From Octopus vulgaris (lineage: Eukaryota), in assembly GCA_951406725.2 (NCBI GenBank), contig OX597819.1:54436001-54500000 (forward strand): a stretch of 64,000 nt of DNA. Direction: 5' to 3'. A program made the position numbers and the translations under genes. This document shows, in pieces, positions 21,008 through 63,718 of the stretch (its first letter is position 1; the number at the start of each line of letters is the position of its first letter). Below the pieces are notes generated by a model. It was not told where the DNA came from. It did not search any database and worked only from the letters and a program-made list of their open reading frames with translations.

Positions 21008-21160
21008 ACAGACTTCTTTTAGTTTCCGTCTACCAAATCCACTCACAAGGCTTTGATTGGCCAAGGTTGTAGTAGAAGACACTTCTGATAGATGCCACGC
21101 AGTGGGACTGAAACCAGAACCATGTAGTTGGGAAGCAAGCTTCTTACCACACAGTCACCC
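21008..21160 (-). mobile_element. SINE family A, 5' half
   Basis: Reverse complement of the 19286-19450 segment. Confidence 0.8.
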
Positions 21161-21164
21161 TTGC

Positions 21165-22322
21165 TGGGAAGATAGTTTTTGTATGTGGCAGATGCTTGGG
21201 AGCAATAAACACTGAAAATGCGCAGAGACCAACTTCCGCCACATTCCAGGTAGAAAAACTAGAAGTAGTTGATAGCTTCCGTTACCTAGGAGACCAAGTC
21301 AGTAGCGGAGGTGGGTGCACTGAAAGTGTAGCTGCTAGAATAAGAATAGCTTGGGCAAAGTTCAGAGAGCTCTTGCCTCTGCTGGTGACAAAGGGCCTCT
21401 TGCTCAGAGTAAAAGGTAGACTGTATGACGCTTGTGTACGAACAGCCATGCTACATGGCAGTGAAACATGGGCTGTGACTGCTGAGGACATGCGTAAGCT
21501 TGCAAGGAATGAAGCCAGTATGATCCGATGGATATGTAATGTCTGTGTGCATACTCGACAGAGTGTAAGTACCTTGAGAGAAAAGTTGGACCTAAGAAGC
21601 ATCAGATGTGGTGTGCAAGAGAGACGACTGCGCTGGTATGGTCATGTGGCAAGAATGGACAAGGACAGCTGTGTGAAAAAGGGCCACACCCTGGAGGTTG
21701 AGGGAACCTGTGGAAGAGGTAGACCCAGGAAGACCTGGAATGAAGTGGTGAATCAATCAAAAGCAAAATCAAAATCAAATTCGATGACTGGCGTCCATGC
21801 TAGCAGGGTGCAAAGAGTATCATATGAGCGTGATCATTGATAGAGCGGCTAACTGGCTTCCATGCCAGTGGCACTTCAAGGGCACCATTTGAGCGTGATC
21901 GTTACCAGCGTCGCCTTACAGGCACTTGTGCCCGTGCTAGTAGGGTGCCAAGAGTACCATCCAAGCGTGACCGTTGCCAGAGCAGCCAACTGGCTTCCAT
22001 GCCAGTGGCACATAAAAGGGCACCATTCAAGCGTGATCATTACCAAAGTCGCCTTACTGGCACCTGTGCTGGTGGCATGTGTAAAAGGATTCGAGCGAGG
22101 TTGTTGCCAGTACCGCCTGACTGGCCCCCGTGCTGGTGGCACGTAAAAAGCACCCACTACACTCTCAGAGTGGTTGGCATTAGGAAGGGCATCCAGCTGT
22201 AGAAACTGCCAAATCAAGATTGGAGCCTGGTGCAGCCATCTGGTTCACCAGCCATCAGTCAAAATCGTCCAACCCATGCTAGCATGGAAAGCGGATATTA
22301 AACGATGATGATGATGATGATG
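21165..22322 (+). mobile_element. RTE-clade LINE, 5'-truncated: RT C-terminus plus 3'UTR with GC-rich tandem subrepeats and (GAT)n tail
   Basis: LEVVDSFRYLGD, RIRIAWAKFREL, MLHGSETW, RRLRWYGHVARM, RGRPRKTW; ends cggatattaaacgatgatgatg. Confidence 0.9.
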
Positions 22323-37485: not shown

Positions 37486-37957
37486 CTATAAAACTACAAC
37501 AAAAAAACACAAAACAAAATGTCACATTGCAAAATATTCATCTATAATCTTGTTTGTACGCAAGAATATATAATATTTATATATTAATATAGACATCTAC
37601 GTTAAGAGAAGCCAGTAATGGGGCAACATGTGTCACAATAAATATCTTGAATATACCCCCATCCTTTACCTTTTCTTTAGTGGAATTCACGTTTTGTCTT
37701 TGAAACGCTGTCGGTCGCAAATAGAAAACCACAAACACTAAAACATTAAAAATTACTTTGTGAAAGGTACACCTTTCTTTTCCAGTTCAAAACTCAGAAA
37801 AAGCCTAACATTTTCTTTGAAGTTTTGGTTAAATTTTGGTGTAATTTGTGAGAAAATAAGGTGGAAGATAAAGGGAGAAAAAGAAGCAAGAAAAAGGATC
37901 AGAACAAAATATAGATAAAAAGAGAAACGGAGTTTGAGAGTGAGGAGAGAACGGAAA

Positions 37958-38971
37958 ATGTCGCAGTTATGTATTTTGAGCCGTAAAGCATATAGATTAA
38001 AAAACCCGCTACAGCCAAAGAAATTGATTTTGGCGATTGGAATTTTCATAATTATATTTTTCTTCGTCAGCAATACACTTTGGCAATTTAACCCTGACAA
38101 ACAAAGGAAGTTTCGTGTAATTATGAATAATTATGTCATCGCCGAAAGAAACTACGATAAAGACACGTTTCCCGATCTTGTTGGAAGTTTTCGCTTTAAT
38201 GACACTAATATCGGCATTGCTATCAACGAAACTGCCCATTTATCAGTGACAGGAAACGAATCCTTGGCTATTATTTACCAAAGCACCATTAGCCCTACAG
38301 AGAAGAAGCTCCTTTTGTATGTCTTTCAATCTTTTATTGATATTTGTCGGCGTCACAATATTGTATTTTTCTTGTACGGCGGTTCACTTTTAGGATCTTA
38401 TCGCCATCATGGTATCATTCCGTGGGACGATGACATTGATATTTTTATGAATTATTCTCAAAGGGACACATTTTACACTGTATCACAGTCAGTGCCTGGC
38501 TTTCAAGTGTCCAATCCAAGGACATTTCAATGGAAATTTTTCTTCAGAGATGTTAAAACTTTGAAAAATCAAGAATTCCGTTGGCCTTACATTGATATAT
38601 TTTTCTTTGGAGAAAATGAGACATCGATCTTTGACTTCACATACGGTAAGCCTAGATATAAATTTATCAAGAAAAATATTTTCCCATTAAAACTTCGACC
38701 GTTCGAAGGGGCTATGCTTGAATCGCCTTGTAATCCATATTTGTTCCTAAAATTTTGGTATGATGTTCGTATGTGCTCTGGAAACTCTTTCAGACACAAA
38801 ACAGAGTCAGTAGCTAATGCTTATTGGAAGAAGTCGGTTCCATGCACCCAAGTACACTTTATGTGGCCGTTTGTTTCCCGCACCATTGACAAGCATTCTG
38901 GAATAATAAAGGAGACCCTACTCTTCAAGAACATTAGCCAATCTCATCCGTTCATCACTAAAACCTGTTAA
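37958..38971 (+). CDS. LicD-family (fukutin/FKRP-related) phosphotransferase, type II membrane protein, 337 aa, intronless CDS
   Basis: ATG at 37958 (aaaATGt); N-terminal TM segment LILAIGIFIIIFFFV; LicD motifs FLYGGSLLGSYRHHGIIPWDDDID, WPYIDIF and IFPLKLRPFEG; uninterrupted ORF. Confidence 0.92.
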   Translation: MSQLCILSRKAYRLKNPLQPKKLILAIGIFIIIFFFVSNTLWQFNPDKQRKFRVIMNNYVIAERNYDKDTFPDLVGSFRFNDTNIGIAINETAHLSVTGNESLAIIYQSTISPTEKKLLLYVFQSFIDICRRHNIVFFLYGGSLLGSYRHHGIIPWDDDIDIFMNYSQRDTFYTVSQSVPGFQVSNPRTFQWKFFFRDVKTLKNQEFRWPYIDIFFFGENETSIFDFTYGKPRYKFIKKNIFPLKLRPFEGAMLESPCNPYLFLKFWYDVRMCSGNSFRHKTESVANAYWKKSVPCTQVHFMWPFVSRTIDKHSGIIKETLLFKNISQSHPFITKTC

Positions 38972-43779: not shown

Positions 43780-44812
43780 GATTCTTTATCTGAGTTCGTG
43801 TGTTGAAGCATATTCTGTTGTGTCTGGGAAGAGTCATTATAAGGCACTAATTCTTGTTTTTCTTATGAAGTGCCCTGTCCATTATGTCCCAGAGGTGACT
43901 GGCTTGGCAATGGAAGCATTTTGGTGCCATTCTCATCTAACAAATCTTGGGTCATTATGTGACAAGGAACACCATGTTCCATAAATAAATAGTCTTCTTT
44001 AATCATTTCACCACTGGAGAAGATTGGAAGGAATTGCAATATGGACACATATTTACCTGAGTTTATGTTTCCCTCACACTCCACCAGCTCTGATCATCCA
44101 TTGCTCCAAATTGCACCCCAGACCATTACAGAATAACTGCCGTGTTTCATTGTTGGCTGCAATCTTTTCACATCAAATTCTTAATCACAGTGTCTCCAGA
44201 CCCACAGTCGATCACTGTCAGGAAATGCAGCAAATCTGGACTCATCAGAGAATATGACAGTGTCCCAAATTGCTAATGGCCTCCCCAGCATCTCACTGGC
44301 CCAATCTTTTCTCTGCTTGATGTTGGCTTGTTGAAGAAGTGGCTTCCTTCTTGCTGCTCTGCCATAGTAACCCAGTTTGTGGACATACCTCACAACTGCT
44401 CTGGGACTGACATCAACTTGTTCTGCTCTGTCAGAAGCCTTGCAGCGAGGATTATCCTCCACATTTCTCTTAACAAAGTGAAGGGTCCTGTCAGAGGGCC
44501 CTGGTTGATCTAAGTGAGGTGATATGGACTCTTTTCCTTCTCTGGTGAATTGCACAATCATTCTATTAACTGTAGAAATTTGGATCTCAAGGTTTTCTGC
44601 GATCTTATGCTATGACCACCTTCAGAATTGCAGCCTCTTTGAAATTCAGACAGTTCAAGGCTTCTTTTGTACATGACATGTTTAAACAGTCACATATATA
44701 ACCTGAAACATAAAAATGCCAATTAATAAAAAAAATAATAAACCTTTACAAGTTAGAATAAATATAAAATGATGTTTTATGGAGTGTCTATTTACTTTTG
44801 TCGCGCGTGTGT
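43780..44812 (-). mobile_element. Tc1-like (DD34E) transposon remnant
   Basis: RAARRKPLL, WDTVIFSDESRF, VMVWGAI; terminal cacgcgcgacaaaagtaaatagacactcc resembles a Tc1 TIR; partial duplicate of the first-D region at 44966-45125. Confidence 0.85.
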
Positions 44813-46547: not shown

Positions 46548-47752
46548 GGGCGATGTTTCGCTTGTCGTAGCACAAGTTTCCGTCGATTTCCGTAAAAAAC
46601 TTTTATTTTTTTACTTAAGTAATGAGAGCGAAAGAGACTAAGAGGAAGCGATTTTATGACGAGGAAATTTCTCTTTGAAGTCCCCGTGTGTGTGTTTGAT
46701 GGGGTGTGGGAGACAGACAGTATGTTGTGTAAGTGAAGTGCTTCTGTTAGTGTGTGCGAAGAGACAGAGAGAGTAATGTGTGAAAGAGAGAGATAACTGA
46801 AATTTTTTACTCGGTGTATGTGTATATGTATGTCTGCATGTATGTGTGTGTGTATGTATCTATCGCTCTTATCAGTGATTCTCTCTCCAATGCCCAGTCT
46901 CTTTTACAATCTCTTGAACAAGCCTCAAATTGTGTAGGTCTTTACCTCAATGAGACCAAAACGGAATACATAAACAAGTGCCTGTCCAACAGTGATTGCA
47001 TCATCCACACTCTCAACAGTGCACCTTTAAATATGGTTTCTGATTATAAATATCTTGGGTCATACATATCATCATCTGGAAAAGACTTTCTAACTAGAAA
47101 GGGTATGGCCTGGTCAGCCTGTAATGACATGCATAAGATCTGGTCATCAAATCTAAGTAGAGACTTCAAACTTGAAATATTCAAAGCCACAGTCGAACCA
47201 ATCCTACTATATGGCTCAGAAACCTGGACGTTATCAAAGAAGCTTGAGAGGCGGTTGGATGGAACCTACACTCGCCTCCTTATGAGAGCTCAAAATCTCT
47301 CGTGGAGGCGCCATCCAACTAAAATGCAAATATATGGGAAATTACCACCTGTGTCATCTCTTGTGAAAGGTAGGAGAGTCCAGTTTGCTGGACACTGTTG
47401 TAGAGCTGAAAAAGAAGTAATTTCTACTCTTCTCCTCTGGAAGCCATCTACTCGCAACACCAGAGGGCGCACACTCTCCTACCCTGATGTAATCTCCAGG
47501 GATACAGGCATCCAGCAACAGGACCTCCGTAATGCTATGATGGACCGTGAAGTCTGGCGCAACATGGTAAATTCCATTGTCTCGACCACGGTCGAACAAT
47601 GATGATGTATCTATGTATGTGTGTGTGTGTATCTATGTATGTGTGTGTGAGTGTGTATGTATGTATGTATGTATGGCCGATTCAGTGTTTACATTTTTTA
47701 CGGAAATCGACAATCGACGGGAACGTGTGCTACGACAAGCGAAACTTCGCCA
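46548..47752. mobile_element. Second copy of the 40378-40953 MITE, opposite orientation, with a nested LINE
   Basis: 46600-46815 is the reverse complement of 40670-40915; same TIRs. Confidence 0.85.
46861..47607 (+). mobile_element. Young 5'-truncated RTE/RTE-X LINE with an open C-terminal ORF
   Basis: Stop-free VGLYLNETKTE, YKYLGSYI, ILLYGSETW, RRVQFAGHC; stop overlaps the (TGA)n tail; inserted in a TGTA microsatellite. Confidence 0.9.
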
Positions 47753-53864: not shown

Positions 53865-56582
53865 TTTCTTTTCTTTTCTTTTATTTATTATTTATTATGA
53901 TTTTATTTTTTTGTTTTATTTTTTGTTTTATTTTATTATATTTATTTCATTCTATTTTTTTATTTAAAAATTTTTGTTATTTTATTTATTTTTTTATTAC
54001 ATTTTATTTTTTAAATTTTATTTTATTTTATTTTTTATTTTATTTAATTATATTTTTTATTTTTTTAAATTTTATTTTTTAAAATTTTATCTTATATTAT
54101 TTTATTCATTTTTCTAATTTAATTTTTTTAATTTTTTTAATTTAATTTTATTTAATTTATTAAAAAAACCTTTTATTTATTTTTATTTTATTTTATTTAT
54201 TTTATTTTTTAATTTAATTTTATTTTATTATTTTTTATATTTTATTTTATTTTATTTTTTAAAATTTTATTCCATATTATTTTATTTTACTTAATTTTTT
54301 TTTATTTTATTTTATTTTATTTCATTTTTTATTTTATTTATATTTAATTTGATTTAATTTTTTTCTTTTATGATTTTTATATTTTTTTTAATCTTAGTTT
54401 ATTTTATTTATATTTTTTATTTTATTCAATTTTATTGTTTTTATTTAATTTTTTATTTCATTTAATTAAATTTTTTAATATTTTTAAAATTTTATTTTAT
54501 ATTATTCATTTTATTTTATTTATTTAATTTTTTTATTTTATTTTTTATTTTACTTTTCATTTAATTTAATTTAATTTTTTTTTATGTATTTTATTTTTTA
54601 ATTTCATTGTAATTTATTATTTTTTTATATTTTATTTTATTTCATTTAAAAAAAATTTTGTATTTTATTCTATTTTTCCATTATTTATTTATTTTTTTAT
54701 TTCATTTTTATTTTTTAATTTAATTTAATTTTTAAGATTTTATTTTATTTTATGTTTTTTTAAATATTTTTTATTTTATTTTCTTTTATTTTTTATATTT
54801 TTTATTTTAATTTATTTAATTTTCAAAAATTTTATTCTCTTTTATTTTATGCACAACTTGTATAACTCAATATCCTAAAATATTATATCTAATAACAAAT
54901 ATTAAATTTATTCTAAACTATTACTAAACCACAAAATATAATTTATAAATCATAGTTACAAAATAAATTTAAATTTGTATTTTTAAAAAATTTTTTATTT
55001 TATTTGAAGAAAATTTTTTCATTCATTTTAAAAAATTTTATTGTTTTAATTTATGTTATCTTATTTATTTTTTAAAATTTATATTATTTTTTATTTTTTT
55101 ATTGTATGTTATGTTGTTTTTTATTTTATTTCATTTTATTTGAAATTAAATTAAATTAAATGAAAAAATGAAATAAGATCAAAAACTTTTTTAATTAAAT
55201 AAAATAAAATTTTTAAAAATCAAATAATAAAAAATAAAATAAAAAAATTTTATTTTATTTTTTTATTATTTGATTTTTAAAAATTTTATTTTATTTAATT
55301 AAAAAAGTTTTTGATCTTATTTCATTTTTTCATTTAATTTAATTTAATTTTTTATTTTATTTTATTTTTTAATTCTTGTTTTTTCATTTTATTTTTTGAA
55401 ACTTAATTTAATTTAATTTTATTCCTTGTTTTAAAATTAAAAAGAAATTTTTTTAATTCATTTTTTTCCTTTTATTTTATTTTTTATTTTATTTTATTTT
55501 ATTTTATTTATCTATTTTTATTTATTTTTTATTTTATGTTATTTTTCATTTTATTTATTTTATGTTTTAATTTAATTTTATTTTCTTTTATTTTATTTTT
55601 AAAAATAATTATTTAAAACATTGTTTTAGTATATTTTTTAATTTATTTTTTATTTAATTTAATTTATTTAATTTAATTTTCTATTATTTTATTTTATTTG
55701 TTTATTTTACACTGTTTTTTATCTTATTTTATTTTTCATTTTATTTTATATTTAATTTAATTAAATTTCATTTTTTATTTCATTTTCTTTTTTCTTTTTT
55801 TTATTTTAAGTTATTTTATATTTTTATTGTAAGTTATTTTTTTAAATTAAAAAAAAAATTTTTTTTCTATTTTTTTTTATTTGTTTTAGTTTAAAAATTT
55901 TTTTAAATTTTATTTTATTCTTATTTTATTTTATCTTTTTTTCTTATTTTATATATTTATATTTTTTTAATATTTTATTTAATTTTTTTTTCATTTTATT
56001 TTATTTTTTTTTCATTTTTATTTTATTTTATTTTTTTAATTTAATTTATTTTACTTTATTTACTTTATTTATTTATATTTATATGTTTTTATTTTATTTT
56101 ATTGTGTTATTCGTTATTTTAGTTTTTATGTTTTTTTTATGTTATTGTTATTTATTTATTTATATTGTTCTTTATTTTATTTTTTAAAATTTAATTGAAT
56201 TTTATTTAATTTGTTATTTTATTTTATTTTTTAATTTTATGTCATTTTATTTGTTTATTATTTTTATTTTGTTTTATTTCATTTTATATTGTTTATTTTA
56301 TTTAAATTTTTTATGTTATTTTATTTTATTAAAAATTTTTTTTATTTTATCTTATTTTATTTTATTTAAAAAAATTTATTTATTTATTTATTTTATTAAA
56401 ATTTTTTTTATTTGTTAATTTAATTAATTTTATTTATTTTATTTTATTTTGTTTTATTGAATTTAATTTTTATTTTTTATTTTATTTTATTCAATTTCTT
56501 TTCTTTCCTTTTCTTTTCTTTTTTTAATTTCTATTATTTTATTTATTTTTCTTTAAATTTTGTTTCATTTTATTTTATTTTA
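53865..56582. repeat. 2.7-kb extremely AT-rich (TTTTA-type) low-complexity tract with an internal ~200-bp palindrome
   Basis: Almost only T/A, T-biased; 55143-55245 is the reverse complement of 55247-55350. Confidence 0.9.
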
Positions 56583-61485: not shown

Positions 61486-63099
61486 TGTAAAGAGTATAGA
61501 ATATACATATATTTAATACTAGCTTAAAAGCCGCACTCCAAATGAAGTGCAGATTTTCAATCCCGGGGTCATCCTGATTCCCAAAAGGTATTATATGTCT
61601 ATGTAGAGCAAATGTAGACTGAGATTCAGGGGTCCCGGACAGACAGAATTTCACATTTATTGTTATAAATAATATGAATACCATGCAAATATTTTGTATA
61701 AGATAAAGATAGTCACACTTTTCAATGATGTTCATTACTGGACAGAATACATTGGAATAGTGTATCTCAGCTGCTCCTTCCGAAATACTTAACCTATCAA
61801 TAGAGTTTGGTATACATAAAGGTAGACGTGGTTTAATGAGGGAGTGTTTTATGTTTTTTGTATTAAATTTTGGTATGTCAATGACGTTATTTCCAGTTTC
61901 TGTTGCAATTTACTTTCACTTTTTTATGACTAGACTGCATGTTAATCCTTTATTTTCATCAACTCCAGAAGGATAAATGTGAAGCTAATTTGAACCCAGA
62001 ATATGAAAGAGCCTTAACTAAATATCACCAAGATATTCTGTAACAACAGCAACAACAACAACAACACATCTAAAAGATAACATAAACAAGTTTTATTCAA
62101 GGAAAATAAATGCTACAATGTAATATACTATCCTAATGATTAGTTTGTAGATATAGTTCGAAGATTGGATCATTACAATATTTGCTGCTATCATACCTAA
62201 GAACACTAACAGTGAGGTTGTAGCTAAAAGTGTATCCAAAAGCAAGCTTAGTACAACATAAAAAATTAAAGGTAATATGACGAGGTTTAATAGAACCAAT
62301 ACTACAAGCATTTTCCTATTGATTTATTTTCATTCTTCCTCAAAGCTGTACAAATATATTTCATCCGTTTGTCTTTTTTTTTTATTTGTATGAAGGCGAG
62401 AAGTTGTTTATACGTCGACGATGTCAGAAATGGCATCTGCAAGCAGAAGGAACGAAAGAATTTAACGTGAAAATTGGATGATGTTATATATATTATGCAG
62501 GTACTGGCTTTTTCTAGGATCGTGTTTTAGTTTTTTTATGTTGTTGTGGGCCTTTGAGCAGAAAATAAAAAAGAAGCAAAACAAAAACGAATATATATAG
62601 TGTAAACAGAATGCTGGTACTTCATATTTCGTATGTATATGCGGATATGCATGGTATTGTAGTACTATTTTGACTATATTGCTAATAATGGAATCTACGT
62701 ATTGTTTTTCTAGTATTAGCGTTATTAATAATAATATGAATGATGATATTGGTAGCATTAGTGGTAATGACAATGATAATGATGCTAACATTAAGGACAT
62801 TTTGGAAATTAATAAGAATTAATATAATGTACCCTTGACTCTGTATATCTGCATTTAGGTATTAATATGTGTATGTTTTTCTACATTGTAATTATCACAA
62901 TATTAAGTTGAAAAACTGTAACATTGAATGTGGAACATATGTATGTTTATCAATTTATATTATTTATATCATTATGTATATGTATATTTATATGTATAGG
63001 AGTATGAGTATATGCATTCATATATATATGTATATGTCTTATTATGGGTATGTACCCACACCTATATAAGTATGTATGTAATCTGATTTGTATCACATA

Positions 63100-63226
63100 A
63101 TCTCCGAAGAGGCCTTAGGATATTTTTGTAAATGTCTCATTTATAACTACATATTGACCTACCATAAATGGCTAATATAAGTAAAATGAGACATACTTAT
63201 CTACATGGCCGAAACAGCTGTAAGAT
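63100..63226 (+). ncRNA. Minimal type-I hammerhead ribozyme fold (CCGAAGA core, long stem II)
   Basis: atct-CCGAAGA-ggcc[~92 nt with atgtctcattt/aaatgagacat stem]ggcc-GAAA-cagctg-TA-agat. Confidence 0.7.
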
Positions 63227-63718
63227 GTAGTCTATATTTATATTTATGTGTACTTATATTTATTTTCTCTTATACATATTCTACTCATTGTATAACATTA
63301 CTCTTTTATGTACACTGTTTTGCCCTACATTATTATGTTTAACCTTATAGTTTCTTATGTGGTGGTTTAATAAAGTATGTGATTGAGTATTATCTGGTAA
63401 TTGATATTTGATTTCGATGTATTTCTCCATTTTCTTATTTTGTATTATGAATTTGTGGTAAAACATTTTACCTTTGCCCTTATAATACAGTAAATGAATT
63501 AACTGCATCACAATTCTTAACATTTATGTATTAACTTTGTTGGGTACTTCACTAGCAGTATATTGGATATATGTTATCCCATGGAGGGTTGCATTTACAA
63601 CCCCCATCTCAATTTGTATATATATACATACATATATTTAGATTCAGATGAATATGGTACTTAAGTTAAAGGCACCAGAATTTTGTATGGTATTATCCAT
63701 ATAAATCAAATGGGGTGA

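What the first reader, a model, noticed from the sequence alone, without database searches (positions are those of the whole stretch)
63100..63226. Complete hammerhead ribozyme topology with a non-canonical CCGAAGA core and ~100-nt stem II
Seen: stem I atct/agat; core C-C-G-A-A-G-A (canonical CUGANGA with U4->C); stem II closed by ggcc/ggcc and extended by an 11-bp perfect helix (63132-63142 / 63184-63194); GAAA; a loopless palindromic stem III (cagctg); cleavage triplet GUA. Established: Penelope-like retroelements carry minimal type-I hammerheads whose palindromic stem III is thought to fold as a dimer. Inference: this is a self-cleaving RNA of a cephalopod Penelope/retrozyme-like family. 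The variant core would be missed by CUGANGA motif searches, and the large insertion sits in stem II.
Basis: partly seen in the sequence, partly recalled or inferred. Interest (0 to 1): 0.75.

Follow-up and report, generated by a model that had tools for sequence, protein, structure and literature searches.

The report
Variant-core hammerhead in Penelope-like retrotransposon
This is a hammerhead RNA motif at the tail of a known type of jumping gene, with one normally fixed catalytic letter changed in hundreds of copies; shortened copies start unusually often just after its predicted cut site, so it likely still cuts itself in the animal, though cutting is untested.

Summary
The motif is there as described. 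It is the type I hammerhead of a Hydra-clade Penelope-like element, not a retrozyme: window 62595-63643 is a 5'-truncated 3' end, and other copies carry the RT plus GIY-YIG frame about 1.9 kb upstream. C4 is a lineage allele, not decay: 565 exact C4 against 216 U4 matches genome-wide, fixed in at least three subfamilies, while a sister family keeps CUGAAGA. The 100-nt stem II covaries. New here: 5' truncation points pile up in the 20 nt after the predicted cut (discovery 14 vs 3.1 expected; C4 replicates 16 vs 4.0; U4 sister 7 vs 1.35). That is indirect evidence of cleavage in vivo; an RT stall or AT-rich junction bias is not excluded. Known already: hammerheads in Hydra elements, U4C in a viroid, CYGANGA search descriptors. 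A second family here (11,113 matches) is also mostly C4. The scan earlier noted U4C in a phage and cut-site starts for other ribozymes in this genome. This copy is solitary and probably inert. Verdict: new variant of a known kind.

The parts
62595..63643 (+). 5'-truncated 3' end of a Hydra-clade Penelope-like element (late 3' UTR, ribozyme, terminal region and tail), inserted in TA-rich DNA
   Evidence: Shared with other copies over this span; RT-EN frame upstream in L061, L062, L070, L072; flanks printed
63100..63103 (+). stem I, 5' strand (pairs with 63223-63226)
63104..63110 (+). catalytic core C3-A9 with C at position 4 (63105)
   Evidence: 565 exact C4 vs 216 U4 matches of the 16-mer; subfamily majorities
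63111..63210 (+). 100-nt stem II: base 63111-63114/63207-63210; helix 63118-63122/63198-63202; helix 63132-63142/63184-63194; terminal hairpin about 63151-63159/63170-63178
   Evidence: -24.9 kcal/mol alone; 5 pairs with changes on both sides, 93% of cells paired in 10 sequences
63211..63213 (+). core G12-A13-A14
   Evidence: no change in the subfamily majorities
63214..63221 (+). palindromic stem III (2 bp plus tetraloop as monomer; 8-bp duplex as dimer, predicted)
   Evidence: free cofold of two copies pairs the palindromes, -65.7 vs -52.6 kcal/mol
63222..63222 (+). A17; predicted cleavage 3' of this base (C in the U4 sister family)
   Evidence: hammerhead numbering
63223..63242 (+). stem I 3' strand plus the 20-nt window in which 5' truncation points of genomic copies pile up
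63446..63624 (+). tail extension, matching sequence upstream of the ORF in fuller copies (pseudo-LTR arrangement)
   Evidence: many copies end at 63445, others near 63643; matches the region 5' of the ORF in L072 and L070

Best explanation
This is the type I hammerhead motif in the 3' pseudo-LTR of a Hydra-clade Penelope-like retrotransposon, with a lineage-fixed U4C core and a conserved 100-nt stem II, and it likely still cleaves part of the element's transcripts after the base matching 63222. Shown: the element, the fixed C4, the covarying stem, and the excess of copies starting just 3' of the cut site. Inferred: tandem or read-through transcripts are cut slowly, probably as a dimer through the stem III palindrome and perhaps with help from the element's protein. 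Reverse transcription primed from the element's 3' end then runs off the new RNA 5' end, so roughly one copy in eight to one in five that reaches this point stops there and is joined after losing a few bases; the rest read through uncut RNA. The long stem II is predicted to be a folding or protein-docking arm that predates C4. This window's copy is a lone truncated insertion and probably does nothing.
For: Element: an EN frame lies upstream of ribozyme-bearing copies in loci picked by protein search, not by the ribozyme; RWK/RWR, DKT, YRDD, CxCx5C, GIY-YIG-like, CxxC and CxH motifs match the Hydra definition. C4 fixed: 565 CCG, 216 CTG, 28 other of 809 matches; in the window's subfamily, sampled by a motif outside the ribozyme, 28 of 35 whole ribozymes read CCGAAGA and 1 reads CTGAAGA. 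Selection: 0 of 35 core and closing-stem columns differ among three C4 subfamilies against 72 of 418 flank columns, P = 0.002. Structure: 11 cells with double changes, 0 of 500 shuffles as high; slid controls 30-46% paired against 93%. Cut-site footprint, starts at 0..+19: discovery 14 vs 3.1 (n = 86), C4 subfamily 6 replicate 8 vs 1.7 (n = 61), U4 sister family 7 vs 1.35 (n = 67); the window's subfamily, new loci, 8 vs 2.35 (n = 76, P = 0.005), one starting exactly at the cut. Without TA-like flanks the C4 replicates give 12 vs 3.3. Simulated truncations with real flanks inflate this bin only 1.1-fold. U4C keeps enough activity in vivo for viroid infectivity (PMC3088659).
Against: No cleavage assay and no RNA ends; only contigs were available. 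U4C considerably lowers activity in vitro. Stem I is only 4 bp, and the hammerhead monomer is 2.7 kcal/mol above the free fold. Starts are spread over about 20 nt rather than at one base, and this stretch is AT-rich; pure (TA)n flanks inflate the bin 2.9-fold in simulation for subfamily 6. Members of inverted pairs were counted separately and are not independent. Most copies read through the site. The core-conservation test used copies picked by core patterns, which biases it upward. No C4 element with two whole ribozymes in direct tandem around an ORF was seen among the loci fetched. In the anole element, ribozyme mutants did not affect insertion in vitro and no RNA-seq ends were found at the cut site (PMC11167929).
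Confidence: 0.66

Rival explanations
1. The motif folds and is kept by selection, but with C4 it hardly cleaves; it serves as a structural or protein-binding element, and the truncation peak is reverse transcriptase stalling at the folded or protein-bound RNA.
For: Stem I's 3' strand covers positions 0 to +3, so a stall would also give starts just 3' of the cut; U4C lowers activity; cleavage was dispensable for insertion in vitro in another Penelope-like element.
Against: The stable part of the fold (stem II, -24.9 kcal/mol) begins 13 nt further 5', and few copies start there (5 in -20..-1 against 23 in 0..+19 among 204 replicate copies). Catalytic bases and an NUH triplet are kept in all subfamily majorities.
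Confidence: 0.2
2. The ribozyme is real in origin, but the truncation peak reflects AT-rich microhomology with (TA)n targets, and C4 lineages carry a weakened or dead ribozyme that hitchhikes.
For: The sequence right after the ribozyme is 85-100% AT; Naiad elements thrive without canonical hammerheads; a reversion to U4 seems to have occurred in one branch.
Against: The next 40 nt are as AT-rich yet hold 10 starts against 23 in the first 20 nt; the peak survives removal of TA-like flanks; no core change accumulated across C4 subfamilies that differ by 9-15% in the flanks.
Confidence: 0.12
3. C4 is a private mutation of one dead copy, or the motif is a chance match.
For: The window copy is truncated and solitary.
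Against: 565 exact C4 matches; 0 descriptor hits in 60 random windows; C is the majority letter at 63105 in four runs with different organism labels.
Confidence: 0.02

Closest known systems
Hydra clade of C-terminal-endonuclease Penelope-like elements and their hammerheads (Craig et al. 2021, PMC8557442; read: passages, section 11, supplement part 2 with File S1 Hydra sheet and File S2)
   Same: RWK, DKT, CxCx5C, CxxC and CxH motifs; TA-rich targets; 3' type I hammerhead; stem III of the ACAG..CUGU kind as in Hydra-1_aMil and Penelope-1_NV.
   Different: All 26 Hydra rows of File S2 have a CUGA core and a loop 2 of 3-10 nt; here C4 and a 92-nt interior. The unit is about 5.1 kb with a 955-aa ORF, against generally under 3 kb. 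The ribozyme differs from that of Hydra-1_oBim, so this is another family.
Minimal hammerheads of metazoan Penelope-like elements (Cervera and de la Pena 2014, PMC4209133; read: parts 1-2 of 4 and supplement passages)
   Same: Type I, short stem I, palindromic stem III, G10.1-C11.1, predicted dimer, mostly solitary truncated copies.
   Different: Their descriptor needs cuganga and loop 2 <= 10 nt; the core variant they describe is U3-A8, not C4; no extra base after A9 here.
Natural U4C hammerhead of a viroid (Ambros and Flores 1998, known only through its citation in Perreault et al. 2011, PMC3088659; read: passages and section 8)
   Same: Same core change; lower activity in vitro but enough in vivo.
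   Different: Here the change is fixed in several retrotransposon subfamilies with hundreds of copies, in a minimal type I fold.
Poseidon element PAc of the green anole (PMC11167929; read: passages)
   Same: Penelope-like element with hammerhead in the pseudo-LTR and a tail extension.
   Different: Its ribozyme was shown to be protein-assisted in vitro, and no in vivo ends were detected; here there is a genomic footprint but no assay.
Animal non-LTR retrozymes (PMC7229834, passages; bioRxiv 10.64898/2026.07.22.740005, part 1 of 5)
   Same: Type I hammerhead with weak stem III in an animal repeat.
   Different: Retrozymes are non-coding tandem units of a few hundred bases; this motif belongs to a coding 5-kb element.

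Membership tests
Type I hammerhead ribozyme | Three helices around C3-A9, G12-A14, A15.1-U16.1 and an NUH triplet | tested here: met
   All present, triplet GUA
Type I hammerhead ribozyme | U at position 4 | tested here: not met
   C4 in this lineage; a known tolerated variant; U4 in sister subfamilies
Type I hammerhead ribozyme | Helices supported by covariation | tested here: met
   Stem II: 5 pairs with changes on both sides. Stems I and III show no compensatory change, so they are not supported this way.
Type I hammerhead ribozyme | Site-specific self-cleavage | not testable with these tools
   Only the indirect truncation footprint
Type I hammerhead ribozyme | Loop 1 - loop 2 tertiary contact | not tested
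   No search was made; minimal Penelope-type hammerheads have a poorly defined loop 1
Hydra-clade Penelope-like element | Single ORF with RT and C-terminal GIY-YIG endonuclease | tested here: met
   955-aa frame in L080; frameshifted halves in C4 copies L070 and L072; Atlas neighbours at 0.95-0.97 include RT-domain clusters. Pfam and PDB sequence searches gave no significant hit.
Hydra-clade Penelope-like element | RWK, DKT, CxCx5C linker, CxxC and CxH motifs | tested here: met
   against the definition
Hydra-clade Penelope-like element | Insertion into (TA)n, pseudo-LTR, tail and inverted truncated copies | tested here: met
   Window flanks, inverted pairs, terminal sequence upstream of the ORF
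Hydra-clade Penelope-like element | Placement inside the Hydra clade in an RT phylogeny | not tested
   No tree with reference Hydra proteins was built; assignment rests on motifs
Non-LTR retrozyme | Non-coding short tandem repeats each with a hammerhead | tested here: not met
   One ribozyme in the window; linked to an RT-EN ORF in a unit of about 5.1 kb

The most novel reading that the evidence does not exclude
U4C is a fully working allele in Penelope-like hammerheads: C4 lineages leave the same cut-site footprint as a canonical U4 family, which would be genomic evidence that these ribozymes cleave in vivo during retrotransposition. The long covarying stem II would be the arm through which the element's protein rescues a weak core, and many thousands of CCGANGA ribozymes would have been missed in animal genomes.
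Probability: 0.35. Interest if true: 0.72.

Novelty: new variant of a known kind. Interest (0 to 1): 0.5.

Why it matters
Whether Penelope-like hammerheads cut in vivo is described as open in the papers read. The pile-up of copy starts at the predicted cut gives a test that can be run on any genome. The C4 and U4 subfamilies form a natural pair for asking how a core change known to be harmful in vitro is tolerated. Strict CUGANGA, short-loop searches undercount these ribozymes: two families in this one genome are mostly C4.

Tried and rejected
Rfam: no hammerhead match. Pfam and PDB sequence searches did not recognise the RT or endonuclease. Expression: no RNA holder listed on record as RNA; contigs from guessed-RNA runs cover the motif but cannot show ends. 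First truncation sample of 30 loci: none began exactly at 63223; the signal is a 20-nt window, found at n = 86. CpG decay as the source of all U4 copies: rejected, since CTG (216) far exceeds the two A-bearing forms together (28) and U4 copies form their own subfamilies. The tree on ribozyme plus flanks was noisy and is not used for polarity. One search returned nothing (no coordinates in headers); one search merged near-identical outgroup copies and was redone; one search crashed and was redone. Searches for a paper on U4C in Penelope-like hammerheads or on copy starts at the cut site found none. Three key papers were not held: Lunse et al. 2016, Ambros and Flores 1998, Nelson and Uhlenbeck 2008. 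File 1 of the Cervera supplement was not searched. Lunse et al. may already list C4 variants.

Full report
Observation. A relaxed descriptor finds only this site in the window and 0 sites in 60 random windows. Rfam does not recognise it. Stem III is an 8-nt palindrome. Free cofolding of two copies pairs the palindromes, at -65.7 against -52.6 kcal/mol for two monomers. The monomer hammerhead fold (-23.6) is 2.7 above the free fold (-26.3), which keeps stem II and leaves stems I and III open.

What it belongs to. A search of the own genome gave 1,726 candidates, 40 scored, 94-100% identical over 261 bases. Copies share window 62595-63643, with ends mostly at 63445 or near 63643, variable 5' truncation and inverted partial copies. 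One fetched locus had a GIY-YIG-like frame upstream. Searching with that protein and fetching 20 loci showed this element's 3' region downstream of the endonuclease in most of them. L072, a C4 copy, shows the layout: terminal sequence, 5' UTR, RT-EN frame with one frameshift, about 1.9 kb of 3' UTR, ribozyme, terminus; the unit is about 5.1 kb. The protein has RWK/RWR, DKT, YRDD, CxCx5C, CxxC and CxH, the features that Craig et al. give for the Hydra clade (PMC8557442 section 11). Pfam and PDB did not recognise it; the Atlas returned eukaryotic RT-containing clusters at 0.95-0.97. No tree with reference Hydra proteins was built. The window copy is a lone truncated end in TA-rich DNA, with no second ribozyme in the window or in the next 6 kb.

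Is C4 real? Of 809 exact matches to the degenerate 16-mer, 565 have CCG, 216 CTG and 28 (by subtraction) an A at position 5. Clustering 115 fetched copies gave three C4 subfamilies of 5 or more copies (40 of 43, 21 of 23 and 3 of 5 CCG), two U4 subfamilies, and a more distant U4 family with a GUC triplet and an 85-nt stem II. In samples chosen by a motif outside the ribozyme, 17 of 25 copies spanning the core read CCGAAGA. Among whole ribozymes, 13 of 18 did so in subfamily 6, 28 of 35 in the window's subfamily, and 0 of 42 in the distant family. An endonuclease DNA tree of 23 rows separates the distant family at 100/100 and nests the U4 subfamily rows inside a 100/100 group that excludes C4 subfamily 6. 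The simplest reading is one gain of C4 and a later return to U4 at a CpG. This is inference: no clade test was run, two rows were labelled C4 from a decayed CCA, and two were unlabelled. C is also the majority letter at 63105 in contigs of four runs with different organism labels (T share 11-29%).

Selection and structure. Among three C4 subfamily majorities, 0 of 35 core and closing-stem columns differ, against 10 of 92 in the stem II interior and 72 of 418 in the flanks (P = 0.002). The copies were picked by core patterns, so this is biased upward. On 10 natural sequences, 93% of cells pair; 5 pairs have changes on both sides, all in stem II; 0 of 500 shuffles reach the 11 double-change cells, but 103 of 500 reach the count of 5 pairs. 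Most double changes come from the distant family, so they are few events. The long stem II is present in U4 families too, so it did not arise with C4.

A possible footprint of cleavage. I mapped the 5' start of copies sampled by 3' motifs outside the ribozyme. In 86 copies from contig C1, 14 start in the 20 nt from the predicted cut against 3.1 expected, and none in the 20 nt before it. With that window fixed, three new samples repeat it: C4 subfamily 6, 8 vs 1.7 (61 copies after dropping 4 loci shared with discovery); the U4 family, 7 vs 1.35 (67 copies out of 1,764 matches); the window's subfamily, 8 vs 2.35 (76 new of 100 copies, out of 325 matches; all 100 give 8 vs 2.8, P = 0.013). One copy begins exactly at the cut. 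Removing TA-like flanks leaves 12 vs 3.3 for C4 and 5 vs 1.1 for U4. In simulation, real flanks inflate the bin 1.1-fold, pure (TA)n flanks 2.9-fold for subfamily 6 and 0.85-fold for the U4 family. Limits: inverted pairs are counted twice, starts spread over about 20 nt, the tract is AT-rich, and a stall at the folded RNA would fall at nearly the same place. The ratios for C4 (about 3.4-4.6) and U4 (about 5) cannot be told apart at these numbers.

Mechanism. Shown: element, fixed C4, covarying stem II, excess starts. Inferred: partial self-cleavage of element transcripts, probably as a dimer and perhaps protein-assisted as for the anole element (PMC11167929), with reverse transcription running off the cut end. 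A U4-family copy has a ribozyme upstream of a 962-aa frame and the terminal region again 5.6 kb downstream (L079), the layout needed for a dimer in cis; I saw no C4 copy with two whole ribozymes in direct tandem around an ORF.

Comparison with what is known. Hammerheads in Penelope-like elements (PMC4209133) and in Hydra elements are described; all 26 Hydra rows of File S2 have CUGA and short loops. U4C is a known natural variant that lowers activity in vitro yet supports viroid infectivity (PMC3088659), and CYGANGA descriptors exist (PMC13481778). The descriptor used for Penelope-like elements would miss this motif on the core, the loop length and the stem III insert. My searches found no paper on U4C in these elements or on copy starts at the cut site, but Lunse et al. 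2016 and two other key papers were not held. A second, unrelated short-stem hammerhead family has 11,113 exact matches, 77 of the first 100 with C4, so the variant is common in this genome. Earlier notes of this scan (unchecked) report U4C in a phage, long-stem Hydra hammerheads here, and cut-site starts for other ribozymes; I read them.

Verdict. Observation confirmed; interpretation partly supported; a new variant of a known kind, interest 0.5. The value lies less in this copy than in the family-level result that C4 lineages kept spreading and show the same cut-site footprint as a canonical family.

Noticed in passing
L064:2330 and L080:996; genome-wide: A second, unrelated short-stem-II minimal hammerhead family with 11,113 exact matches, 77 of the first 100 carrying C at position 4. 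Its parent element was not identified.
   Followed up: partly
subfamily 19 (e.g. L105, L103; position matching window 63210): A U4 subfamily has G10.1-U11.1 instead of the conserved G-C pair in 6 of 6 copies.
   Followed up: partly
L071:147: Another canonical type I hammerhead with a 46-nt stem II interior and a different stem III.
   Followed up: no
window 37919-38971 (+): 350-aa open frame with a LicD-family domain (E 1e-16), possibly a host gene exon.
   Followed up: partly
window 21112-21840, 46784-47602, 44181-44609: Fragments that look like LINE-type reverse transcriptases (judged by eye; weak RVT_1 for the second) and a Tc1-type transposase (PF01498).
   Followed up: partly
L072:9344 (matches window 63212): The upstream terminal repeat of a near-full-length C4 copy begins 11 nt before the predicted cut, at an inversion junction.
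   Followed up: no
window 54001-56000: A 2-kb stretch of only 6% GC, presumably a simple-repeat array.
   Followed up: no
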